A DNA stretch of 64,000 nucleotides from Candidatus Woesebacteria bacterium. Lineage in GTDB: Bacteria > Patescibacteriota > Microgenomatia > UBA12405. Position 1 is the first letter of the stretch. Each line of letters opens with the position of its first letter. Shown here piece after piece: positions 5,489 through 52,208 of this stretch. The position numbers were made by a program, and so were the translations under genes. Where the stretch lies: NCBI GenBank assembly GCA_035450165.1, contig DAOTMI010000001.1, positions 45,888 to 109,887 of the forward strand, given 5' to 3'. The notes under the pieces are model-generated. The model made no database searches. It saw only the letters and a list, made by a program, of their open reading frames with translations, and was not told where the DNA came from.

Positions 5489-5829
5489 AGTTTTAAACCT
5501 CCTTGTCTAGCCCCCTCGGCAACGGCTTTAATCCGGCCATGATAACGGCTTAGACCACGATCAAATCTAACTTGGTTGATATTTTGTGCTAAGGCCAATT
5601 TAGCCAATTGTTTACCTAACTCAAACGCTTTTTCTGTTTTAGTCCCCTTAGTTTCCTTAAGGTTTTTAGTTGAAAAAGCAACTAAAGTTCGGCCATTTTG
5701 ATCGTCAACAATCTGGGCCCAAAGATGCTGATTACTTCTGAAAACACTCAAGCGGGGTATTTCCTGATTATGACTCAGTTTAGCCCGAACTCTTTTAAGA
5801 CGACGAATTTGATGATCTTTAATTATCAT
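5485..5829 (-). CDS. rplR: 50S ribosomal protein L18
   Basis: 114 aa. RLSVFRSNQHLWAQIVDD... is the L18/L5e fold. Confidence 0.9.
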   Translation of the reverse strand: MIIKDHQIRRLKRVRAKLSHNQEIPRLSVFRSNQHLWAQIVDDQNGRTLVAFSTKNLKETKGTKTEKAFELGKQLAKLALAQNINQVRFDRGLSRYHGRIKAVAEGARQGGLKL

Positions 5830-6762: not shown

Positions 6763-6941
6763 CTCGCCTTTTTTACTCCTGGCAGAACCCCTTCTTGGGT
6801 TAACTTTCTAAAACAAAGACGACAAACACCAAAAAAACGAATATAACCTCGGGGCCGACCGCAAAGCTGGCACCGATTGTGATACCTCACCTTATATTTT
6901 AATTTTTTTTGTTCTCTAACTTTTTTTGCTAAAGTAGCCAT
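6756..6941 (-). CDS. rpsN: 30S ribosomal protein S14, type Z (zinc-binding)
   Basis: 61 aa with CQLCGRPRG...CRLCFR, two CxxC pairs. This is the short Zn-type S14. Confidence 0.9.
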
Positions 6942-6943
6942 AT

Positions 6944-7474
6944 TTATTTTTTCTCAAAAACGCAACCTAGGGCAGATAATAACATTTTTGCCTCTTCTTT
7001 GGAAGCAGTGGTTATATTCAGGGTAATTTGGATTGGTCTGATTTTATTAACCTTATTTAAATTAATTTCCGGAAAATAAGTCTGATCTTTAATAATTAAA
7101 CTATAATTACCTTGATCATCAAACGACGTAGTTGGCAATCCTTTGAAATCGCGTAAACGCGGTAAAACTAAATTAAATAATCTTTCAACAAAATCATACA
7201 TTCTCTTTCCCCGCAGGGTTACTTTTAAAGCCAACGGTTCATTTTTTCTCACCTTAAAGGCTGAGACTGCTTTTTTAGCTCGACAAAGTTTGGGTTTCTG
7301 ACCGGTAATAGCCATTATCTCCTCGACAGCGGCTTGGAGCATTTCCGATGACTCTCGAGCTTCCTTAACCCGGTAATTAACCACCACCTTCTCAAGCCGC
7401 GGTAAAGAAAAAACATTTCTCGTTTTTCCCAACAATTCCGACAATTGTTTATTAATTTCTTTTGGGTCAATCAT
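6944..7474 (-). CDS. rplE: 50S ribosomal protein L5
   Basis: 176 aa with L5 N- and C-domains ([29 protein letters not shown]). Confidence 0.92.
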
Positions 7475-15159: not shown

Positions 15160-17265
15160 TTAAGACTTCTTGACTCCGGGTTTAGTCAATTCTGCCTGAA
15201 TTTCGCAGGGAACGGGATCATAGCGCGATAATTCCATATAAAATAAACCCCGACCTTGAGTTAGAGAACGAATAGTAGTCGCATAACCACGGACAGCTTC
15301 CAGAGGAATAAAACAATCAATAGTCGTAATACCATAAAGCTCTTTAGTATTACTAATTTGGCCCCTCCTTGACGATAAATCACCGATAACTGCCCCCAAA
15401 AACTCTGATGGTGTTTCTACCTCCATTTTCATAATCGGCTCCAAAATCAGCGGTTTAGCCTGTTCGAAAGCTTCTTTGACAGCAAAAGAACCGGCCAATT
15501 TAAAGGCCATTTCGCTGGAATCAACTTCATGGTAAGTACCATCAAAAACAGTAACTTTTAAATCAGTACAGGGATAGCCGGCAATAATCCCTTTAGATAG
15601 GGTTTCCCGAACCCCTTTTTCAATCGCCGGAATGAAATTAGCCGGAATAGCACCGCCTTTGACGGCGTTAATAAACTCTACTCCCTGACCTCTTTCCTTA
15701 GGTTCAACCCGCAGCCAGCAATGACCATATTGGCCATGACCGCCGGATTGATGAATATATTTTCCCTCAGCTTCGGCCTTTTCTGAAATAGTCTCCCGAT
15801 AGGCCACCTGAGGAGCTCCGGTTTTAACATTAACTCCAAATTCCCGTCTCAACCGATCAATAATAATTTCCAAATACAGTTCACCCATACCGGAAATAAT
15901 GGTTTGGCCGGTTTCATGGTCATAAAAAACTTTAAAAGTCGGGTCTTCGATTGCCAATTTATTTAAAGCCTGACCCATTTTTTCCTGATCATCGGCTGTT
16001 TGGGGTTCAATAGCCAGAGAAATAACTGGTTCGGCAAAACGAATCGGCAGAAGAGAAATGGGCTGATTGCGATCACAGAGAGTGTCACCGGTGGCCGATT
16101 CTTTTAAACCAATACAAGCGACAATTTCTCCAGCAAAACCTTCCTCAATCCCTTCCCGTTTATCGGCGTGCATCAAAAGCAGCCGGCCAATTCGTTCGGT
16201 AGTTTTTCGGGTGGCATTATAAACTTCAGAACCAGCCTTTAAAACACCGGAATATATCCTAACATAGGATAAAGTTCCCACATGAGAATCAGCCTGAACT
16301 TTAAATAAAAGGGCTGATAACGGCTCTTCCCGTAAAGGCTTGCGGGTAATTTTCGCCTCAGTTTCCACATCATAACCTTCAACCGGGGGCAGATCTAACG
16401 GTGACGGTAAATAATCGACGATACCGTCCAAAACTGGTTGGATGCCTTTATTTCGCCAAGCCGAACCACAATAAACCGGAAAAAGTTTTCTTTCAATAGT
16501 TGCCTTTCTTAAAACTCTTTTTAAATCTTCAACTTTAATTTCCTCATCGTTTAAAAATTTCTCCATTAAAACTTCGTCCTGGCCAGCGATTGCTTCGACC
16601 ATTTTAGTTCGAACTTCTTCAATTTTATCCTTATCTTCAGGATTTAATTCCTTAGTGGTAAAATTAATCCCCTGTTCATCTTGATCCCAAACCAGCATTT
16701 TCCGGGTCATTAAATCAACCACTCCCATAAATTCATGCTCTTTACCAATTGGGTAAACTACCGGAACTGCAGTTACCCTTAATTTTTCCCTGATACTCTT
16801 AAGAACTAAATTAATATCGGAGCCGATTTTATCCATTTTATTGATAAAAACGATTCGGGGCACTCCATACCGATCAGCCTGACGCCAAACTGTTTCTGAC
16901 TGAGCTTGAACACCGGCATTGCCATCAAAAACCATTACCGCTCCATCCAAAACTCGGAGGGATCGCTCCACTTCAGCGGTGAAATCGACATGGCCGGGAG
17001 TATCAATAATATTAAAACGGTGATTTTTCCAAAAAGTCGTAATACAAGCGGATTGAATAGTAATTCCCCGTTCTTTTTCTTGAATCATAAAATCAGTGGT
17101 CGTTGTCCCTTCATCAACTATACCTATTTTATGGATTTTTCCAGTATAAAACAAAATCCGTTCGGTAGTTGTCGTCTTGCCGGCGTCAATATGGGCAATA
17201 ATACCAATATTACGGACTTTTTCTATCGCGACGTCGCGGTTTTTAGTTATTTTAATCGCTTCCAT
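15160..17265 (-). CDS. fusA: elongation factor G
   Basis: 701 aa. NIGIIAHIDAGKTTTTERILFYTG, DTPGHVDF, NKMD, and domains II-V. Confidence 0.95.
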   Translation of the reverse strand: MEAIKITKNRDVAIEKVRNIGIIAHIDAGKTTTTERILFYTGKIHKIGIVDEGTTTTDFMIQEKERGITIQSACITTFWKNHRFNIIDTPGHVDFTAEVERSLRVLDGAVMVFDGNAGVQAQSETVWRQADRYGVPRIVFINKMDKIGSDINLVLKSIREKLRVTAVPVVYPIGKEHEFMGVVDLMTRKMLVWDQDEQGINFTTKELNPEDKDKIEEVRTKMVEAIAGQDEVLMEKFLNDEEIKVEDLKRVLRKATIERKLFPVYCGSAWRNKGIQPVLDGIVDYLPSPLDLPPVEGYDVETEAKITRKPLREEPLSALLFKVQADSHVGTLSYVRIYSGVLKAGSEVYNATRKTTERIGRLLLMHADKREGIEEGFAGEIVACIGLKESATGDTLCDRNQPISLLPIRFAEPVISLAIEPQTADDQEKMGQALNKLAIEDPTFKVFYDHETGQTIISGMGELYLEIIIDRLRREFGVNVKTGAPQVAYRETISEKAEAEGKYIHQSGGHGQYGHCWLRVEPKERGQGVEFINAVKGGAIPANFIPAIEKGVRETLSKGIIAGYPCTDLKVTVFDGTYHEVDSSEMAFKLAGSFAVKEAFEQAKPLILEPIMKMEVETPSEFLGAVIGDLSSRRGQISNTKELYGITTIDCFIPLEAVRGYATTIRSLTQGRGLFYMELSRYDPVPCEIQAELTKPGVKKS

Positions 17266-17297
17266 AGTTAGTAATTAGTAATTAGTAATTAGTAATT
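17266..17297. repeat. tandem 7-bp repeat (AGTAATT)x4.5 in the divergent fusA / flavoprotein intergenic region
   Basis: agtt-agtaatt-agtaatt-agtaatt-agtaatt read directly. It lies immediately upstream of the fusA start codon at 17265. Confidence 0.8.
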
Positions 17298-17332: not shown

Positions 17333-18475
17333 ATGAAAAAGAAAATTGCTATAATCGGCGGAGGAATCGGCGGACTAACTGTTGGATATTTTTTAAAGAA
17401 AAAAAATTATGAGGTGACGGTATATGAAAAGGAGAAAGACTTAGGTGGTTTAATGGGGAGTTTTGAAATTAACGGGAAAAAAATTGAAAAAACATATCAT
17501 CATATTTTTGCCAGTGATACGGAAATTATTAATCTAATTAAAGAATTGGGGTTAGATAAACAACTGATTTGGCGGAATGAAAATATGGCCGTGATTTACC
17601 AAAACAAGGTCTACGCTTTTAATTCACCAATCGATTTATTAAGGTTTTCGCCGTTGGATTTAATTGACAAAGTTCGGCTAGGTTTGGTGTCAATTTATTT
17701 ACAAAAAGAAAATAATTACCAAAAATTTGAAAAAATTAAAGCTTACCAATGGATTAAAAAATATTTTGGCAAAAATGTTTATCGAGTTTTATGGCAGCCA
17801 CTTCTAAAGGGAAAGTTCGGCAAGGATTATAAAGAAATAAATATGACCTGGTTTTGGGCCAGAATACATTACCGAGGCCATTCAAAATTGGGATATATGA
17901 AAGGTGGTTTCGGACAAATCATTAACAAATTGTCCAAAAATCTAAATATAATTTATAAAAATGTAAAGGCAGAAAATTTAAAAGGTTATGATCTGATAAT
18001 CGATACATCGCCGATAAAATCGGTAAAATATTTAGGAGCAGTAGATGTAATATTTACCAGTAAACAAAACTTATCAAAGTATTATTGGCATAATATTAAT
18101 GACGAAAAAGCACCATTTGTTGCTTTTATTCAACAGACAAATATGATTGATGATTATGGTAGTCACGTTTACTATATGGGTGGTTATTACCCACAAGATC
18201 ACAAATATTTTAAAGTAAAAGATGAAATAATTTACCAAGAATTCTTTGAATATCTGAAGAAAATATTTAAAGAATTTGAGGCAAAAGAAATTGAAAAAAG
18301 GTGGATATTTAAATTTCCGTACGCTCAACACATGCCCCGCTTCGCGGGAAGTTCCAATAACCAAATTCCAAGAAGCAAATATATTATTCACATGAATTTT
18401 GCGCAAATTTACCCGCAGGATCGGGGAATTAATTACGCAGTCAAACAGTCAAGAGAGTTGGCATCACTACTGTAA
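17333..18475 (+). CDS. FAD/NAD(P)-binding oxidoreductase (amine-oxidase / UDP-galactopyranose-mutase-like)
   Basis: 380 aa. N-terminal Rossmann dinucleotide motif IAIIGGGIGGL...VYEKEKDLGG. HHIF...and MKGGFGQIINKL segments parallel Glf/protoporphyrinogen-oxidase-family landmarks. AT-rich codon usage. Confidence 0.6.
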   Translation: MKKKIAIIGGGIGGLTVGYFLKKKNYEVTVYEKEKDLGGLMGSFEINGKKIEKTYHHIFASDTEIINLIKELGLDKQLIWRNENMAVIYQNKVYAFNSPIDLLRFSPLDLIDKVRLGLVSIYLQKENNYQKFEKIKAYQWIKKYFGKNVYRVLWQPLLKGKFGKDYKEINMTWFWARIHYRGHSKLGYMKGGFGQIINKLSKNLNIIYKNVKAENLKGYDLIIDTSPIKSVKYLGAVDVIFTSKQNLSKYYWHNINDEKAPFVAFIQQTNMIDDYGSHVYYMGGYYPQDHKYFKVKDEIIYQEFFEYLKKIFKEFEAKEIEKRWIFKFPYAQHMPRFAGSSNNQIPRSKYIIHMNFAQIYPQDRGINYAVKQSRELASLL

Positions 18476-38152: not shown

Positions 38153-39858
38153 TATTTAAGGATAGCATAGAGACGGCGTTTTGAACTGCCGGCTGACTCT
38201 TCCTTAATAATTTTGAATCGACCCAAAACACCAGTTCTTTTAACATGAGGGCCAGTGCAAACTTCTCGGCTGAAATTACCAATAGTGTAAACAGAAACTA
38301 CGGCTGGATATTTATCACCAAAAACAGCCAAAGCACCCGATTTTTTCGCTTTGATTAGGGTCATATTTTTACTGACAACTGGTAAATCAGCCTGAATCAT
38401 TTGGTTAACCAAATTTTCCACTGCCAATATCTGTGCCGAAGTTAACTTTGAGGGATAAGTAAAATCAAAACGCAGTCGTTCAGGGGTAATATTGGAACCA
38501 GCTTGATGAACCTGATTACCCAAGAGCTGTCTTAAACCCGCTTGAAGTAAATGGGTGGCTGTGTGATATTTTGTTGTCATCTCGGAATTATCCTTTAAAC
38601 CACTTTTAAACGCCCCCCGATCAATGGTTTTCGATTTTCGCTGATGTTCCTTTCCAGCTTGATCAAATTCATCTTTATCAATAACTATACCCAATTCTTC
38701 TTCGATTAACTCTAAAGGAAAGCCATAACTTTCATAAATTTTAAAGGCTTCCTTGCCCGTCAAAGTCTGGTAATGTTTTAATTCTTTCAAACCTAATTCT
38801 AAGGTCCTTTTAAATCTCTTTTCTTCATCCTGGACTACGTTGATAATATCGGGATTATTTAATTCATCGTAGTTATCTGCATAATTATCACGATTATCAA
38901 TAACAGCCTGGACGATTGGCGTTAAACTTTCAATAGCCAAACTTTTGGCTAATCGGACTGATTTTCGAATTAAACGGCGAAGGACATAACCGCCTTCTTT
39001 ATTACTTGGTTCAATGCCATCGGCAATGAGAAATACTACCGCTTTTAAATAATCAGCTATGATTTGAACCGAATTTAACGACTGATTTTCCCCTTTCCTT
39101 AAGACTTCGATTGTCTTAATAATCGGTTGCCAAACAGAAGTTAAATAATCATTATTTTTCCCATCTAAAGCGGCTAAAATCCGTTCGACCCCCATGCCGG
39201 TATCAACATTTTTCAGACCAAGATCTCGATAATGACCTTGGCCATCAGTATAATGATCCATAAAAACATCGTTCCAAATTTCAAGGTAGCGGCCAGATTT
39301 TTCCCCGATCACAAAGGGAACCTCAGGCTGATTTGACTGAAGATCAATAAACATCTCGGTATCGGGGCCGCCTGGACCGGCTACACCTTCCCGCTCCCAC
39401 CAATTAGTTTTTTTTCCCAGAGTTACTAAATGATTTTCGGGTATTCCTAATTTTTTCCAAATTTTTGGTGTTTCTTTATCAGATTGATAAACCGTTACCC
39501 AAATAAAGCGAGGATTAAACTTTAAAATTTGGGTTAAAAATTCAAAACTCCAACTGATAGCCTCTTCTTTAAAATAATCGTTTAAAGACCAATTGCCTAA
39601 CATTTCAAAAAAGATATGGTGTCGACCGTCACCGACGCTATTAATATCGCTTGTCCGTAAACACCGCTGGAGACCCACTAAACGCTTGCCTAAAGGATGG
39701 GGTTGACCCATTAAATAAGGCACCAGAGGATGCATGCCGGCGGAAATAAAAAGAGTAGAAGAATCGTTCTCGGGGATAAGGGAAACATTGGGAATTTCCT
39801 GATGACCTTTGGCTTTAAAAAAATCAAAATACTTCTCTTTTAACTGCCGAGCTTTCAT
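38152..39858 (-). CDS. alaS: alanyl-tRNA synthetase, short form (catalytic and editing core, no C-Ala domain)
   Basis: 568 aa. AlaRS class II N-terminus (FISAGMHPLVPYL...RCLRTSDI...GDGRHHIFFEMLGNWS) and the editing-site HTATHLL. It ends about 300 aa short of canonical bacterial AlaRS. Confidence 0.8.
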   Translation of the reverse strand: MKARQLKEKYFDFFKAKGHQEIPNVSLIPENDSSTLFISAGMHPLVPYLMGQPHPLGKRLVGLQRCLRTSDINSVGDGRHHIFFEMLGNWSLNDYFKEEAISWSFEFLTQILKFNPRFIWVTVYQSDKETPKIWKKLGIPENHLVTLGKKTNWWEREGVAGPGGPDTEMFIDLQSNQPEVPFVIGEKSGRYLEIWNDVFMDHYTDGQGHYRDLGLKNVDTGMGVERILAALDGKNNDYLTSVWQPIIKTIEVLRKGENQSLNSVQIIADYLKAVVFLIADGIEPSNKEGGYVLRRLIRKSVRLAKSLAIESLTPIVQAVIDNRDNYADNYDELNNPDIINVVQDEEKRFKRTLELGLKELKHYQTLTGKEAFKIYESYGFPLELIEEELGIVIDKDEFDQAGKEHQRKSKTIDRGAFKSGLKDNSEMTTKYHTATHLLQAGLRQLLGNQVHQAGSNITPERLRFDFTYPSKLTSAQILAVENLVNQMIQADLPVVSKNMTLIKAKKSGALAVFGDKYPAVVSVYTIGNFSREVCTGPHVKRTGVLGRFKIIKEESAGSSKRRLYAILK

Positions 39859-45637: not shown

Positions 45638-45821
45638 AAACTATTATAGCCCAATCAAATTACTTTTCTGACCCGGAACAGATCACTCTTTTTTCCTTGG
45701 CCAAAATTTTTCATTTTTATTCGCCCTTCTTGACGGAACGATTGAATTAGATTTTGAAGATTTTTATCAGGCATAATCTAAATTATACCCGTCGGGGTAA
45801 AATTACAACTCTTTTCTCAAT

Positions 45822-46565
45822 TTAGAACCGCAATTTATACAATCGGTTTAATACATCTAGATTTTTCCTTCTCATAATCAAAGTTGCTTCTTTATCACCA
45901 GTGGTGTCTCCCGACCTATTTTCAATAGAGTTCAATAAAATTTTATAAGCTCTAGAAGCCAGCTTACTTCGCATTGGATTGTTTTCTTCTATTAATCTCA
46001 GTATACCGACTATGGTTTCCCAGTTTTCCCAGGTTTTCCAGGTTTCCCAGACTTCCCAGTTACACGGTCGACTTTCCTCCTCCAATTTCCCGCTTACCTT
46101 TTTCTCTATCTCAGCCATATCAAGAAAGTCTTCGGCTGCCCAGCAACGAGCCCAATCAGGATCAGAAAATTCTTTTTGATCTCTGCTACCTAAAAAACTT
46201 AAATTTTCATCGACTAAAATAGCATACTCCCTTTTAATGCCTGCCTCATTAGTCGATTTTATTCCCTCAATCATCCTATCGTTTAAAACAAACAATAAAT
46301 TATTTCTCGATTCAAACGGCTCTATTTTTCTAACCATTTTGAGTAAAACTCTCAACTCTTCAGGATTCTTTTCTCCTGCCGCTATTGGACCCTTTTCATT
46401 CTCCTCTACAATATCGCTCCAAACATCGTCAACTTTCTCACTGTATTCTTTACGACCAATCCAACAACATTCTTCTTCACTCCCCCTGAAAACAAAATTC
46501 TTTTCAAACAAAGTAGAAGCGGTTTCATTTTCTCTTTTTTCAGTCATGTGACGTCTATATATCAT
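45822..46565 (-). CDS. hypothetical acidic protein with a tryptophan-periodic repeat (WEVWETWKTWENWET)
   Basis: 247 aa, very acidic, with no TM. The W-x-x repeat is encoded by the 9-bp tandem DNA repeat at 46014-46058. Confidence 0.5.
   Translation of the reverse strand: MIYRRHMTEKRENETASTLFEKNFVFRGSEEECCWIGRKEYSEKVDDVWSDIVEENEKGPIAAGEKNPEELRVLLKMVRKIEPFESRNNLLFVLNDRMIEGIKSTNEAGIKREYAILVDENLSFLGSRDQKEFSDPDWARCWAAEDFLDMAEIEKKVSGKLEEESRPCNWEVWETWKTWENWETIVGILRLIEENNPMRSKLASRAYKILLNSIENRSGDTTGDKEATLIMRRKNLDVLNRLYKLRF
46014..46058. repeat. 9-bp tandem repeat x5 (ggtttccca variants) within the CDS 45822-46565
   Basis: ggtttccca / gttttccca / ggttttcca / ggtttccca / gacttccca read directly. In-frame (3n) on the minus strand, encoding WE(V/T/N), WKT units. 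Confidence 0.8.
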
Positions 46566-46638
46566 AATAGAACAAAAAAGTCAACACAAGGTTTTCCATG
46601 TAGAGACGTCCGCCTAGGCGGATGGGGGGATTTCTAAT

Positions 46639-48351
46639 TTAGACTTCAATCACCAGCGGCAGAACCATCGGCTGGCGGCCGGTCTTATCAAAAATAATCT
46701 TTTCTAAATGGGCCTGAATTTCGGTCCGAATAAACTCAAAATTAGCTGGCTTACTGGTAGTCTGTTTAAATTTATTGGCAGCCTCAATTTTAAGATATTT
46801 CATTAAATCAGGATTGTCTTTAACAAAAACGAAGCCGCGGGAAAGAATTACCGGTTCTTTAAATAATTCACCGGTTTCTTTATTGACCAATAAAACTACT
46901 GAAAACATCCCATCTTCAGCCAAAGTTTTCCGATCCCGCAAAACCGTCAAACCAACATCGCCGATACCCAAACCGTCAATCAAAACTTTCTTTAACGGCA
47001 CCCGATAGGTTAAACTGACACCGCCGGATTGACTAAAAGTAATAGCCTGATCAAATTCCGGAGTAATAATCTGTTCATCCCGATAACCCAATTTTTTAGC
47101 CATTAATTGATAACTTCTTATATGACGAAAATTACCGCCAATAGGCAGCAAATATTTTGGTTTAAGCAAATTAATTAAAATCGCTTGTTCATGCTGATAA
47201 CCATGGCCGGTGACATGAAGCTCCTCTTTTTCACTGTAGGCTACTTCGGCGCCTAATCGGGAAAGGGTATCAATTAAATTATAAATATCGGTAGTCGTCC
47301 CTGGAATATAATCAGGGGAACTAAAAATCACCCGATCAGTGTTTTTAATTTTAATCTTGTGCTTGCCCATAACTATCTTGGATAAAGCTGAATCTGGTTG
47401 AGCTGAAAAGCCGGCGACTAAAAAAAGTAATTTGTTGTCCGGGAAATTTTTATGACTTTCTAGAGGAATAATATCGCTGGGTTGTAGTTTAAGATAACCC
47501 AAATCACGGGCGATATTAATCGCCTTTTCCACCGACATTCCCACTAAAACAATTTTTCGGCCGCAACTTTTGGCAGATTCAATGGCCTGTCCCCAGCGGA
47601 CAATATTACTGGAAATAGAAGTTACCAGCACCCGGCCTTTGGCCGAGACAATCTCCCGTTTAAAATTATCCGCAATTGAACTTTCGGATGGACTGTAACC
47701 CTCATGATCAGCTCCCAAACAATCAGACAGCAAACACAAAACCTGTTGATGGCTGTTAAGACGGGCGATATGGGCTAAATCAGTTACCTGGCCATCGAGG
47801 GGAAAAAGGTCAAATTTAAAGTCAGATCCATGATAACAAATACCTAATGGTGAGTGAATAGCGAGATGAAAAGTATCGGGAATAGAATGAGTGACCCGAA
47901 CCGGCTCAATGGTAAATGGACCACAATTAATTAATTGGCCCTCGTTGTAAAGATTTAATCGGCAATGAAGATTAAACTCAGCCAGCCGGGATTCAATGAA
48001 AGCCGCCGCCAATTTAGGCGCATAAATAGGAAATTTATTGCCTAATAAATTTAAGACAAAACGAATTGCTCCAATATGATCTTCGTGACCATGGGTAATA
48101 AACATACCTAAAATACGGTCTTTTTTATCTTGGAGATAAGTCGTATCAGGAATTTGAAGATCAACCCCGAAAGTGTCCTCTTCCGGAAAACCAGTACCGC
48201 AGTCAACAATAATAATCTGACTTCGGCTAAAATCGCCTTGAGGTGCTAATTCATAGACAAACATGTTTTGGGTCACATCGCCAAAACCACCGAGGGAAAT
48301 AATTCTCAATAAATCATTTCCTTGAGAAAAAGTTTTTTGAAATTTTTTCAT
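46639..48351 (-). CDS. rnj: ribonuclease J (metallo-beta-lactamase / beta-CASP)
   Basis: 570 aa. HxHxDH motif (ITHGHEDHIGA), beta-CASP and C-terminal domains. Confidence 0.85.
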   Translation of the reverse strand: MKKFQKTFSQGNDLLRIISLGGFGDVTQNMFVYELAPQGDFSRSQIIIVDCGTGFPEEDTFGVDLQIPDTTYLQDKKDRILGMFITHGHEDHIGAIRFVLNLLGNKFPIYAPKLAAAFIESRLAEFNLHCRLNLYNEGQLINCGPFTIEPVRVTHSIPDTFHLAIHSPLGICYHGSDFKFDLFPLDGQVTDLAHIARLNSHQQVLCLLSDCLGADHEGYSPSESSIADNFKREIVSAKGRVLVTSISSNIVRWGQAIESAKSCGRKIVLVGMSVEKAINIARDLGYLKLQPSDIIPLESHKNFPDNKLLFLVAGFSAQPDSALSKIVMGKHKIKIKNTDRVIFSSPDYIPGTTTDIYNLIDTLSRLGAEVAYSEKEELHVTGHGYQHEQAILINLLKPKYLLPIGGNFRHIRSYQLMAKKLGYRDEQIITPEFDQAITFSQSGGVSLTYRVPLKKVLIDGLGIGDVGLTVLRDRKTLAEDGMFSVVLLVNKETGELFKEPVILSRGFVFVKDNPDLMKYLKIEAANKFKQTTSKPANFEFIRTEIQAHLEKIIFDKTGRQPMVLPLVIEV

Positions 48352-50006: not shown

Positions 50007-52208
50007 TTATGGCCGCCGATTCCGTTGTGGGCGGAGGTTGGGATGAAAATGGCTAAAAGACTGGGCCTGCCTGCCAGTAGGCATAGCCTGCCTGCGATTA
50101 GGCATAGCCTCACCCTGATGGGCCGCCTTAAATTCTGGAGCTGCCAAACGAATCTGATGATTTTCATTAAAACCAGCCACTTTAACATGCAACTTATCGC
50201 CTATTTTGATAATTTTCCGCGGGTCGGAAATAAAACCCTGACTCATTTCGGAAATATGCAGTAAAGCCTCACGCCCAGGTAAAAACTCAACAAAAACTCC
50301 ATAATCCTCAACTCGGGTAACCTGGCCGTTAAATTCCTCCCCGGTTCGAATTTCCCTAACCATCGAACTTATTTCAAAAGCAGCCGCCTTCACCTTAACC
50401 TCATCAGGGCCGGCGATATAGGCTTGACCATTATCTTCAATATCGATTTGCACTCCATATTTCTCCATTAAAGCCCGGATAGTCTTACCGCCAGAACCAA
50501 TAACATCACCAATTTTATCTTCAGGAATAACTACAACTTCGATTTTAGGAGCATAGGGTGATAATTCCTGTCTCGGGGCGGGCATAGTTTTATCGATTAA
50601 ATCAAGAATCTGCAATCTGGCTTGTAAACTTCTGGTAAAAGTTTCCTTAATCATCGGCAATGTCAAACCCCGGCATTTAACATCCAATTGAATCGCGGTA
50701 ATTCCTCCGCGGGTACCGGCAATCTTAAAATCCATGTCACCATAATGATCTTCAATCCCGGCAATATCAGTCAAAAGTAAATAGTTATTTTCACTTTCGG
50801 CTACCATACCGATCGAAATACCAGCAACTTTATCTTTAATCGGCACGCCGGCGTCTAAAAGCGATAAGGTTGAACCACAGGTAGAAGCCATCGAGGAAGA
50901 CCCGTTTTGAGACAAAATCTCAGAAGTCAGCATAATCAAATAAGGGAATTCTTCTTCAGAGGGAATAACCGGCATTAAGGCCTTTTCAGCCAAAGCTCCA
51001 TGACCGATTTCCCGACGACCTGGGCGGCCAACCCGACCTGTTTCACCAGTTGAAAAAGGCATCGCCGAATAATAGTGAATATAACGCTTAGTTGTTTCAC
51101 CACTGCTATCCTGTAGATACTGTCTATCAGCCAAAGTCGACAAAGTAGTGACGGTTAAAGCCTGGGTTAAACCTCGTTGAAATAAAGCCGAACCATGGGT
51201 ACAAGGAAGAACCCCAACCGTCATTGATAACGGCCGGATTTCCTCTATGCCTCGACCGTCAAAACGCCGGCCAGCTAAAGCTCTCTGGCGAAAATACTTT
51301 TTCACAATTTGAGCCAAAGCTTCCTTTAAAATATTGGGGTTGACTTCTTCGGCTTTTATTTGGTCATCATAAAGGGCTAGAATCTTCTCTACTAATTTTT
51401 TTTCACCTTCAATATGCTTACCATCAGCACCATGATCTAAAAATTCTTCGACTTCATCTTTAATTTGACCTTCCAATTGATCAACTAATTCTTTTGTTGG
51501 CAGATATGGCTCAAAAGCTATTTTTGATTTCTGAAATGAAGCCGTAAAGTGTTTAATCTGGTCATTAATTTCTTCGCCATTATTTTTAGCCAGTTCTATT
51601 GCCTGATAAGCTAACTCATTATCAACCATTTGGGCGCCGGCTTCAATCATATTGACTCCAGCCGGGCCGGTACACACTAATAAATCTAACTCTGATTGAT
51701 TTAATTCGCTAACTGATGGAAATAATTTTAATTCATGATTAATCAGACCTACCCGAACAATTGCTACGGGTCCATCAAAAGGAATATCGGAGGCAGTCAA
51801 AGCCGCCGCCGCCGCTAAAAAGGCAGGTACTACCGGATCATGTTCCTTATCATTACTTAAAACAGTAGTAATTATCTGAACTTCATGGTGAAAACCATTG
51901 GGAAATAAAGGTCGCAAAGAACGATCAATAATCCGGCCAAAAAGAATCGCCGCATCCGAGGGTGCTCCTTCCCGTTTCATCCATTTACCGCCTTTAATAA
52001 GACCGCCGGCATATAATCTATCAGCATATTCTACCGACAAAGGAAAATAATCCTTAGTTTCGTCTAATTCTCCTAAGACTACCGTGGCTAAGACCACCGT
52101 TCCTCCCCAACGAGCTATTATTGATCCGTTAGTTTGAGGTGCTAAAATCCCGGCCTCTAGGGTAAAGTCCGCTCCCCCTAGGGAAAGCTTCATGATTTTT
52201 TTCTCCAT
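50007..52208 (-). CDS. pnp: polyribonucleotide nucleotidyltransferase (PNPase) with a basic low-complexity C-terminal tail
   Basis: 733 aa. Two RNase PH domains plus KH and S1. A tail (AMPNRRQAMPTGRQAQ...RPQRNRRP) follows S1. It is encoded by a GC-rich 21-bp imperfect direct repeat at 50065-50109. Confidence 0.92.
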   Translation of the reverse strand: MEKKIMKLSLGGADFTLEAGILAPQTNGSIIARWGGTVVLATVVLGELDETKDYFPLSVEYADRLYAGGLIKGGKWMKREGAPSDAAILFGRIIDRSLRPLFPNGFHHEVQIITTVLSNDKEHDPVVPAFLAAAAALTASDIPFDGPVAIVRVGLINHELKLFPSVSELNQSELDLLVCTGPAGVNMIEAGAQMVDNELAYQAIELAKNNGEEINDQIKHFTASFQKSKIAFEPYLPTKELVDQLEGQIKDEVEEFLDHGADGKHIEGEKKLVEKILALYDDQIKAEEVNPNILKEALAQIVKKYFRQRALAGRRFDGRGIEEIRPLSMTVGVLPCTHGSALFQRGLTQALTVTTLSTLADRQYLQDSSGETTKRYIHYYSAMPFSTGETGRVGRPGRREIGHGALAEKALMPVIPSEEEFPYLIMLTSEILSQNGSSSMASTCGSTLSLLDAGVPIKDKVAGISIGMVAESENNYLLLTDIAGIEDHYGDMDFKIAGTRGGITAIQLDVKCRGLTLPMIKETFTRSLQARLQILDLIDKTMPAPRQELSPYAPKIEVVVIPEDKIGDVIGSGGKTIRALMEKYGVQIDIEDNGQAYIAGPDEVKVKAAAFEISSMVREIRTGEEFNGQVTRVEDYGVFVEFLPGREALLHISEMSQGFISDPRKIIKIGDKLHVKVAGFNENHQIRLAAPEFKAAHQGEAMPNRRQAMPTGRQAQSFSHFHPNLRPQRNRRP

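What the first reader, a model, noticed from the sequence alone, without database searches (positions are those of the whole stretch)
45822..46565. Acidic orphan protein whose Trp-periodic repeat (WEVWETWKTWENWET) is encoded by a 9-bp tandem DNA repeat
Five consecutive 9-bp units (46014-46058) give a protein segment with Trp at every third position, flanked by Glu/Lys. This is an unusual amphipathic W-ladder inside an otherwise highly acidic, cytoplasmic 247-aa protein with no recognisable family. Because the unit is 9 bp, replication slippage would change copy number without frameshifting, giving a length-variable repeat. The gene is preceded by a perfect 14-nt palindrome TCCGCCTAGGCGGA (46609-46622).
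Basis: seen in the sequence. Interest (0 to 1): 0.5.

Follow-up and report, generated by a model that had tools for sequence, protein, structure and literature searches.

The report
Orphan Trp-repeat gene in a hot spot
A real gene found only in one Woesebacteria population encodes a helical protein with five tryptophans spaced three residues apart; it fills a genome slot that holds toxin-antitoxin genes in the closest relatives, its function is unknown, and its repeat shows no sign of varying in length.

Summary
The minus-strand ORF 45822-46565, five 9-bp units at 46014-46058 coding WEVWETWKTWENWET, and the palindrome TCCGCCTAGGCGGA at 46609-46622 are all present. The start is more likely ATG 46547, giving 241 aa.

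The protein has no detectable relative. Pfam, NCBIfam, PADLOC, PHROGs, PDB, phage, plasmid and viral collections, a 5.8-billion-protein index and an exhaustive phmmer scan of 1.84 billion representatives found only its own 98-100% identical cluster from Candidatus Woesebacteria. The only other "hits" are tectonin propellers, and these are an artefact of summing repeats.

Strain variants give pN/pS of about 0.28, so it is a real coding gene.

Synteny explains the context. The RNase J / ProRS junction is a variable slot. It is empty in a Shapirobacteria genome. It holds RelB-YafQ (with or without tRNA-Pro) in the closest relatives, and a RAYT-like transposase or other ORFs elsewhere.

The proposed length variation is not supported: every contig and cluster member has five units, and the units are imperfect.

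My best reading is a young, species-restricted accessory gene for a non-catalytic helical binding protein, whose Trp run arose by in-frame duplication. Interest is modest.

The parts
45822..46547 (-). Orphan CDS, 241 aa plus stop (MTEKRENE...YKLRF).
   Evidence: ORF list and sequence. Public gene calls give 241 aa, HRS22667.1, Candidatus Woesebacteria. Strain variants have 6 synonymous and 7 nonsynonymous sites, pN/pS about 0.28, binomial p = 0.025. No family or homologue found.
46014..46058 (-). Five in-frame 9-bp units (consensus TGGGAAACC) coding WEV-WET-WKT-WEN-WET, residues 164-178
   Evidence: TRF period 9, 5.1 copies, 83% matches. Repeat family D1. Unit coordinates. Unique in the window. 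Copy number is the same in all variants.
46556..46584 (-). Promoter-like element: TTGACT (46579-46584), 17-nt spacer with TG at 46563-46564, TATATA (46556-46561), then 8 nt to ATG 46547. No Shine-Dalgarno sequence, so probably a leaderless or near-leaderless mRNA.
   Evidence: Read from the sequence. The automatic scan did not report it because the last base of the -10 hexamer is A. Many other genes in the window have TATAAT or TATACT 5-9 nt before their ATG. Conserved in strain variants except TTGACT>TTGATT in three of them. Inferred, not shown.
46609..46622 (.). Perfect 14-nt palindrome TCCGCCTAGGCGGA, starting 16 nt after the RNase J stop codon and about 25 nt upstream of the -35-like hexamer
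   Evidence: Invariant in 6 strain variants. Not enriched over chance. Weak hairpin only. Role unknown: possibly an operator or an RNase J 3'-end hairpin.
45789..46638 (.). The swapped cassette: the segment with no DNA similarity to the nearest relatives. It is bounded by the RNase J stop codon (46639-46641) and by the GTATAAT box (45782-45788) of the conserved 39-aa ORF upstream of ProRS.
   Evidence: In blastn of the window slot against L013, L014 and L015, similarity ends at the RNase J stop and resumes near 45788. In those loci the interval holds RelB + YafQ, plus tRNA-Pro in L015.

Best explanation
Shown: this is a real protein-coding gene restricted to one species-level population, with no detectable relatives. 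It sits as a one-gene cassette in a hypervariable slot between RNase J and ProRS. The same slot holds a RelB-YafQ toxin-antitoxin pair in the closest relatives, mobile-element or unknown genes in others, and nothing in a Shapirobacteria genome. The Trp run has the same copy number in every sampled strain, so it is a fixed structural feature, not a switch.

Inferred: the gene has its own promoter-like element. The Trp run arose by in-frame tandem duplication of a 9-bp unit (TGG GAA ACC) followed by a few point changes. The product is a soluble, charged, all-alpha helical-repeat-like protein with no His and no catalytic signature, so it most likely acts by binding rather than catalysis. The W-(E/K)-x strip, lying between an N-terminal helical region (about residues 55-125) and a C-terminal one (about 176-241), would give an aromatic surface flanked by charges for self-association or for holding a partner. 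This is how the NANOG tryptophan repeat and WxxWxxW ladders work. Given the slot's other contents, an accessory role of the immunity, antitoxin or anti-defence type is the most plausible biological role.
For: Real gene:
- The 241-codon ORF is intact in all variants.
- There are 6 synonymous and 7 nonsynonymous polymorphic sites, pN/pS about 0.28, p = 0.025 against neutrality. RNase J next door is at about 0.04.

Orphan:
- No hit in Pfam, NCBIfam, PADLOC or PHROGs (E at least 0.2), or PDB (E at least 0.1).
- Only its own cluster among 5.8 billion clusters.
- The exhaustive phmmer scan of 1.84 billion representatives gave itself plus three repeat proteins. The best single aligned stretch scores 18.3 bits, with an independent E-value of 120 at library size.
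- Nothing in viral, phage or plasmid collections.

Slot contents:
- L013 and L014 (RNase J 78% identical): RelB + YafQ.
- L015 (75%): RelB + YafQ + tRNA-Pro.
- L138: RAYT-like protein plus two small ORFs.
- L140: ORFs of 74 and 344 aa.
- L139: empty, RNase J followed by ProRS after 7 nt.
- Distant Patescibacteria L010 and L011: nothing, or a HigBA-like pair, before FtsK.
- DNA similarity to relatives stops exactly at the cassette borders.

Young or foreign:
- The codon-usage index is 0.639 against 0.691 +/- 0.020 for 21 neighbouring genes.
- The coding strand has a much stronger purine skew than its neighbours.

Fixed repeat: five units in every sequence.

Helical: both AlphaFold2 runs give all-helix models, and Foldseek's best (non-significant) matches are TPR, 14-3-3 and designed helical repeats.

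Binding analogy: the NANOG tryptophan repeat mediates dimerisation (PMC5446312). WxxWxxW loops in BAD-1 and thrombospondin repeats mediate binding (PMC3708853).
Against: - The functional part is inference only. There is no homologue, no partner gene and no expression data.
- The structure models are low-confidence (mean pLDDT 47.7 and 50.5, and below 45 over the Trp run), so even "helical" is weak.
- If the run is an alpha-helix, Trp at period 3 does not form a single face, so how the "strip" is presented is unknown.
- pN/pS rests on 13 sites.
- The promoter is read by eye, and the automatic scan did not call it.
- The four differences among repeat units all fall outside TGG, but that has a probability of about 0.2 by chance, so selection for Trp is not demonstrated.
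Confidence: 0.55

Rival explanations
1. Length-variable (contingency) repeat. Replication slippage of the 9-bp unit changes the number of W-x-x units without a frameshift, giving a population of proteins with different ladder lengths.
For: The unit length is a multiple of three and the array is head to tail. In-frame 9-bp repeats are known to vary in other bacteria, for example collagen-like GXX regions (my own knowledge, not tested here).
Against: No length variant exists among the 7 cluster members (a 90%-identity cluster would include variants of plus or minus 3 aa) or among contigs from at least 9 samples, which do differ by point mutations. There are only five units at 83% identity, and only two units are identical, which disfavours slippage.
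Confidence: 0.07
2. A recently born or recently acquired ORF that is effectively neutral or already decaying. It may be transcribed, but it has no selected function, and the Trp run is just a slippage scar.
For: No homologue anywhere. Lowest-tier codon-usage index in the window. pN/pS of 0.28 is about seven times that of RNase J. It lies in a slot with high turnover.
Against: The ORF is intact in all variants. An open frame of 241 codons is very unlikely by chance in DNA of 38% GC. Nonsynonymous changes are significantly depleted (p = 0.025). The upstream promoter-like region and palindrome are conserved.
Confidence: 0.17
3. A chimera that keeps a degenerate C-terminal remnant of the YafQ/RelE-type toxin occupying the same position in relatives, fused to new N-terminal sequence. 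It would be a decayed or repurposed toxin.
For: Orphan residues 176-218 align with residues 27-67 of the positional YafQ of L013 (IEENNPMRSKL against ILQNNPFDSKL). BLASTP gives E = 0.006 for the single comparison and shuffling gives p = 0.0095. Both proteins end next to the same downstream boundary.
Against: About ten proteins were compared, so the p-value does not survive correction. The YafQ of L015 gives p = 0.07. Pfam YafQ_toxin, ParE, RelE and the PDB do not match the orphan or its C-terminal 66 residues even at E = 10. There is no DNA similarity. The region is predicted helical, whereas RelE-fold toxins have a beta-sheet core.
Confidence: 0.05
4. The 9-bp array is mainly a DNA-level element: iteron-like binding sites inside a gene, with one more copy in the promoter. 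The Trp ladder would be a by-product.
For: An exact copy of unit 3 (TGGAAAACC) lies at 46590-46598 on the same strand, between the palindrome and the -35-like hexamer. About 0.007 would be expected in a 91-nt interval at the window's background rate.
Against: This is a post-hoc observation. Apart from the four units in the array itself, the motif is not enriched in the window (6 other copies against about 5 expected). A 9-bp period does not match the DNA helical repeat. No DNA-binding protein is encoded in the cassette.
Confidence: 0.03
5. A single tectonin-like beta-propeller blade (lectin-like). This is what the only database hits with E below 1e-6 would suggest.
For: phmmer E = 1e-12 and 5e-7 to two tectonin-repeat proteins, aligned to residues 131-194.
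Against: The score is the sum of 7 near-identical repeats. The best single stretch scores 18.3 bits, with an independent E-value of 120. A junk repeat protein (P0009) scores in the same way. Pfam Tectonin does not hit the orphan. One blade cannot form a propeller, and the models are helical.
Confidence: 0.01

Closest known systems
WxxWxxW tryptophan ladder of thrombospondin type-1 repeats and the Blastomyces BAD-1 adhesin (PMC3708853, PMC6954052)
   Same: Trp at every third residue. In those proteins the Trp side chains line up on one face and stack with partner side chains to form a binding and stabilising ladder.
   Different: Those have three Trp, not five. They are secreted, cysteine-knotted eukaryotic modules with an Arg partner strand and often C-mannosylation. 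The orphan is a cytoplasmic bacterial protein with no Pfam TSP_1 match, no signal peptide and no disulphide framework. This is an analogy only.
NANOG tryptophan repeat (PMC5446312, PMC9106587)
   Same: A simple repeat whose periodic Trp residues drive self-association and partner binding inside an otherwise unrelated protein, encoded by a short tandem DNA repeat.
   Different: The period is 5 rather than 3. It lies in a disordered, prion-like eukaryotic transcription-factor tail. There is no sequence relation.
RelB-YafQ type II toxin-antitoxin cassette (Pfam PF04221 and PF15738)
   Same: Occupies exactly the same interval (after the RNase J stop, before the 39-aa ORF and ProRS) in the nearest relatives L013, L014 and L015. 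Both are small, self-contained accessory cassettes.
   Different: The orphan is one gene of 241 aa rather than two of about 99 aa, with no significant similarity to either partner.
In-frame short tandem repeats in bacterial genes (contingency-type loci, e.g. collagen-like GXX arrays; my own knowledge)
   Same: A repeat unit that is a multiple of 3 bp and could in principle change copy number without a frameshift.
   Different: No copy-number polymorphism is seen here. The array is short and imperfect.
Tectonin beta-propeller repeat (PF19193)
   Same: Trp-rich local pattern (W..(G/C)W...D(Y/F)LDM...G(R/K)LE...W.TW.T) that produced the only database hits.
   Different: Not significant per repeat and no Pfam match. 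It is an artefact of summing repeats.

Membership tests
Tectonin / PLL-like beta-propeller (PF19193) | Significant match of the protein to the family profile or to a single blade | tested here: not met
   Pfam: no hit at E up to 10. Best single-stretch phmmer score 18.3 bits, independent E-value 120 at library size.
Tectonin / PLL-like beta-propeller (PF19193) | Several tandem blades of about 50 aa closing into a propeller | tested here: not met
   Only one stretch (residues 131-194) aligns. The rest of the protein is predicted helical.
YafQ / RelE-type toxin (PF15738) | Profile match to the toxin family | tested here: not met
   No Pfam hit for the full protein or its C-terminal 66 aa. The YafQ of L013 itself matches PF15738 at E = 5.6e-6 but scores 27 bits, just under the 30-bit curated cut-off.
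YafQ / RelE-type toxin (PF15738) | Adjacent cognate antitoxin gene in a two-gene operon | tested here: not met
   The cassette holds a single gene. The downstream 39-aa ORF is also present in relatives that lack the orphan.
Thrombospondin type-1 repeat (WxxWxxW ladder) | WxxWxxW motif | tested here: met
   W at residues 164, 167, 170, 173 and 176.
Thrombospondin type-1 repeat (WxxWxxW ladder) | Six-cysteine framework, Arg partner strand, secretion signal, profile match | tested here: not met
   Four Cys in total (27, 28, 135, 162), no signal-like N-terminus, no Pfam match.
Slippage-driven length-variable (contingency) repeat | Copy-number polymorphism among strains or samples | tested here: not met
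   Five units in all 7 cluster members and all fetched contigs.
Slippage-driven length-variable (contingency) repeat | Copy-number heterogeneity among reads within a sample | not testable with these tools
   No read data are available.
Known anti-phage defence or phage protein families | Match to a PADLOC or PHROGs model, or a relative in phage, viral or plasmid records | tested here: not met
   PADLOC: none. PHROGs: E at least 0.22. IMG/VR: none. Phage tblastn: E = 0.3. Plasmids: none.

The most novel reading that the evidence does not exclude
The five-rung period-3 Trp ladder is a previously undescribed bacterial structural or binding motif, for example an aromatic zipper that oligomerises the protein or clamps a partner or nucleic acid. 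On this reading the gene is the founding member of a new one-gene accessory system (immunity, anti-defence or toxin-like) that competes with RelB-YafQ for the same integration slot next to RNase J in Woesebacteria.
Probability: 0.1. Interest if true: 0.55.

Novelty: new variant of a known kind. Interest (0 to 1): 0.28.

Why it matters
If the gene is functional, it would be an example of how ultra-small Patescibacteria (CPR bacteria) gain new genes. A homologue-less protein has replaced a toxin-antitoxin pair at a defined hot spot beside an essential RNase. Its Trp ladder would be a compact natural model for repeat-born aromatic binding surfaces.

As the evidence stands it is one of very many CPR ORFans. 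The more reusable result is the map of the RNase J / ProRS junction as a variable slot, together with the sign that leaderless promoters may be common in this genome.

Tried and rejected
1. Family and remote-homology searches all came back empty or insignificant: Pfam, NCBIfam, PADLOC, PHROGs, PDB sequence search, and the C-terminal fragment searched alone.
2. The tectonin hits from the exhaustive search were dissected per stretch and rejected as an artefact of summing repeats.
3. AlphaFold2 on the full protein and on residues 125-241 gave low confidence (pLDDT 47.7 and 50.5). Foldseek against the PDB gave no match below E = 0.2 and TM-scores of 0.31 or less.
4. A metagenome-wide DNA pattern scan for (W[EK]x)4W returned at least 120 loci. 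Nearly all are perfect microsatellites in short frames or in wrong-frame GC-rich DNA. Only one sits in a credible long ORF (L053), and none resembles the orphan outside the repeat.
5. The genome-contig scan with RNase J returned only distant genomes at 40-46% identity. Closer relatives had to be reached through the protein index.
6. Descent from the positional YafQ or RelB: there is weak pairwise similarity to YafQ only, which does not survive multiple-test correction or profile searches.
7. Rfam search and RNA folding of the flanks found nothing.
8. The palindrome as a significant element was rejected statistically.
9. A T-box upstream of ProRS in L138 and L140 was suspected from a GGTACCACG string, but Rfam gave no match at gathering threshold.

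Full report
**1. The observation**

The minus strand carries an ORF at 45822..46565 of 247 aa. Tandem Repeats Finder reports a period-9 array at 46014-46059 with 5.1 copies, 83% matches and score 64, the second-highest score in the window. On the coding strand the units are TGGGAAGTC, TGGGAAACC, TGGAAAACC, TGGGAAAAC and TGGGAAACC. They translate to WEV-WET-WKT-WEN-WET.

Five TGG codons at 9-nt spacing occur once in the window. About 3.5e-5 would be expected from base composition, so the repeat is not a chance pattern. It has the form of an in-frame tandem duplication. The four differences between units all fall outside TGG. That alone has a probability of about 0.2, so it is not evidence that Trp is under selection.

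The palindrome TCCGCCTAGGCGGA is at 46609-46622. Perfect 14-nt palindromes are as common in the window (9) as in random sequence (7.4 +/- 2.5). A GC-rich one appears in 19% of random windows. As RNA it gives only a 5-bp stem with a 4-nt loop and no U tract, and the intergenic region folds no better than shuffles (z = -0.97). It is nevertheless invariant in six strain variants.

**2. Gene model**

Public annotations start the protein at ATG 46547, giving 241 aa, HRS22667.1 and HRT39837.1, Candidatus Woesebacteria.

Upstream I read three elements: TTGACT at 46579-46584, a 17-nt spacer with a TG, and TATATA at 46556-46561. The ATG follows after 8 nt, with no Shine-Dalgarno sequence. The automatic scan did not call this promoter, so it is an inference. 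However, many genes in the window have TATAAT or TATACT 5-9 nt before their ATG and no Shine-Dalgarno sequence. Examples are the starts at 39858, 41575, 45637, 45774, 49955 and 60329. A leaderless start at 46547 therefore fits local usage.

The protein has pI 4.96, with 49 acidic and 39 basic residues, 9 Trp, 4 Cys, no His and one Gln. It has no hydrophobic segment longer than about 8 residues. It is soluble and highly charged, and moderately rather than extremely acidic.

**3. Is it a real gene?**

Contigs from at least nine independent samples carry it, always between RNase J and ProRS. Across the variants there are 6 synonymous and 7 nonsynonymous polymorphic codons, over 139 synonymous and 584 nonsynonymous sites. 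This gives pN/pS of about 0.28 and a binomial p of 0.025 against neutrality. RNase J next door is at about 0.04.

The gene is therefore under purifying selection, but weakly. Its codon-usage index (0.639) is 2.6 SD below the mean of 21 neighbouring genes (0.691 +/- 0.020), while GC3 is ordinary. The coding strand is unusually purine-rich. This profile fits a young or acquired gene.

**4. Homology**

Nothing was found in:
- Pfam, NCBIfam or PADLOC
- PHROGs (E at least 0.22)
- PDB (E at least 0.1)
- IMG/VR, GenBank phages (E = 0.3) or plasmids

The 5.8-billion-cluster index returns only the protein's own cluster of 7 members at 98-100% identity. The exhaustive phmmer scan of 1.84 billion representatives returns the protein itself plus three repeat proteins. 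Two of these are tectonin propellers and one is a junk tandem repeat. Taken stretch by stretch, the best single alignment scores 18.3 bits with an independent E-value of 120 at library size. The apparent E = 1e-12 is thus the sum of seven near-identical weak matches. The protein is a true ORFan at present sensitivity.

**5. Context**

I collected RNase J homologues and read their neighbourhoods. The order S15 - PNPase - Lon-like AAA - UDG - RNase J - [slot] - ProRS - FtsK is conserved. The slot varies:

| Locus | RNase J identity | Slot contents |
|---|---|---|
| L013, L014 | 78% | RelB + YafQ |
| L015 | 75% | RelB + YafQ + tRNA-Pro(UGG) |
| L138 (Woesebacteria) | 71% | RAYT/Y1-transposase-like protein + two small reverse ORFs |
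| L140 | 72% | 74-aa ORF + 344-aa repeat protein |
| L139 (Shapirobacteria) | 71% | empty; RNase J followed by ProRS after 7 nt |

In distant Patescibacteria, RNase J is followed directly by FtsK or by a HigBA-like pair.

DNA similarity between the window and L013-L015 stops at the RNase J stop codon. It resumes near 45788, at the GTATAAT box of a conserved 39-aa ORF. The orphan, its promoter-like region and the palindrome (about 45789-46638) therefore form a cassette. It replaces the toxin-antitoxin pair of the nearest relatives. None of the other slot proteins resembles the orphan.

**6. The length-variation hypothesis**

A 90%-identity cluster would include alleles differing by one unit (3 aa). 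The cluster has only 241-aa members, one 247-aa alternative-start call and one truncated partial. All fetched contigs have five units while differing at up to 9 other positions. The array is short and imperfect. Heterogeneity at read level cannot be tested here. On the available data the repeat is fixed.

**7. Structure and likely mode of action**

AlphaFold2 without an alignment gives all-helical models of low confidence. Mean pLDDT is 47.7 for the full protein, reaching 64-75 only for residues about 60-120, and 50.5 for residues 125-241. Foldseek finds nothing significant. The best non-significant matches are TPR, 14-3-3 and designed helical repeats.

The protein has no His, no catalytic motif and a helical-repeat-like prediction. 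I therefore infer a non-catalytic binding or scaffold protein. The W-(E/K)-x strip between two helical regions would serve as an aromatic contact surface flanked by charges. This is analogous to the NANOG tryptophan repeat (PMC5446312) and to WxxWxxW ladders (PMC3708853, PMC6954052). The slot's other tenants are toxin-antitoxin modules and mobile-element genes, so an accessory, conflict-related role is most plausible. All of this is inference and none of it is shown.

**8. How unusual is the Trp ladder?**

A metagenome-wide scan for the DNA pattern coding (W[EK]x)4W returned at least 120 loci. Almost all are perfect microsatellites lying in short or wrong-frame ORFs. Only one (L053) sits in a credible long protein, and none resembles the orphan outside the repeat. 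A period-3 Trp run inside a real, selected bacterial gene is therefore rare, but it does not define a family.

**9. Rivals**

- A neutral or decaying young ORF (0.17) is the main rival.
- A contingency repeat (0.07) is disfavoured by the invariant copy number.
- A YafQ-derived chimera (0.05) rests on one gapped alignment: BLASTP E = 0.006, shuffle p = 0.0095 for L013 and 0.07 for L015. It fails profile tests.
- A DNA-level iteron reading (0.03) rests on a single extra TGGAAAACC at 46590-46598.
- A tectonin-like blade is rejected.

**10. Verdict**

The feature is real and correctly described. It is a homologue-less accessory gene carrying a repeat-born Trp ladder, in a newly mapped variable slot. 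Its function is unknown, and the proposed length variability is not supported. Interest is modest at 0.28.

Noticed in passing
window 45655-45774 (-); L013 7375-7491; L015 7502-7618: A 39-aa ORF (MPDKNLQNLIQSFRQEGRIKMKNFGQGKKSDLFRVRKVI) lies between the orphan and ProRS. It is conserved at 51-54% amino-acid identity in the three nearest relatives (tblastn E about 1e-10) and has GTATAAT 7 nt before its ATG. It is absent from L138, L139 and L140. It may be an unannotated small protein or a leader for ProRS.
   Followed up: partly
window starts 39858, 41575, 44445, 45637, 45774, 49955, 60329 (all -); L139 about 5755-5770: Many genes have TATAAT or TATACT 5-9 nt upstream of the ATG and no Shine-Dalgarno sequence, which suggests leaderless mRNAs are common in this Woesebacteria genome. 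In L139 the RNase J stop codon lies inside a GTATAAT box 6 nt before the ProRS ATG.
   Followed up: partly
window 17268-17297: A perfect 7-bp tandem repeat (TTAGTAA, 4.3 copies) directly abuts the ATG at 17265 of a 701-aa minus-strand ORF. It lies in the divergent intergenic region shared with the plus-strand gene starting at 17333. It is a candidate slippage-sensitive promoter or 5' region.
   Followed up: no
window 50065-50110: A 21-bp tandem repeat (2.2 copies, 92% matches) encodes AMPxxRQ heptad-like repeats in the C-terminal tail of the PNPase ORF (50007-52208, -).
   Followed up: partly
window 46590-46598 (-): An exact copy of repeat unit 3 (TGGAAAACC) sits between the palindrome and the -35-like hexamer of the same gene. 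Six other TGGRAAAMC sites occur elsewhere in the window, against about 5 expected.
   Followed up: partly
window 46550-46555 and 46605-46610; L007, L008, L009: Two GACGTC hexamers bracket the promoter-like region, as part of a 13-nt imperfect inverted repeat. In three strain variants the downstream one is AACGTT. That is two changes which keep the hexamer palindromic, and they occur together with TTGACT>TTGATT.
   Followed up: no
L015 7405-7479: A tRNA-Pro(UGG) gene lies in the variable slot immediately upstream of the small ORF and ProRS in one relative. No tRNA gene is found anywhere in the 64-kb window.
   Followed up: yes
L138 about 6930-6960; L140 about 7380-7410: The sequence upstream of the longer (472-478 aa) ProRS in these relatives contains a T-box-like GGTACCACG string, but Rfam gave no match at gathering threshold. 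The window's clade has a shorter ProRS (402 aa) without the ProRS-C_1 domain, preceded by the small ORF.
   Followed up: partly
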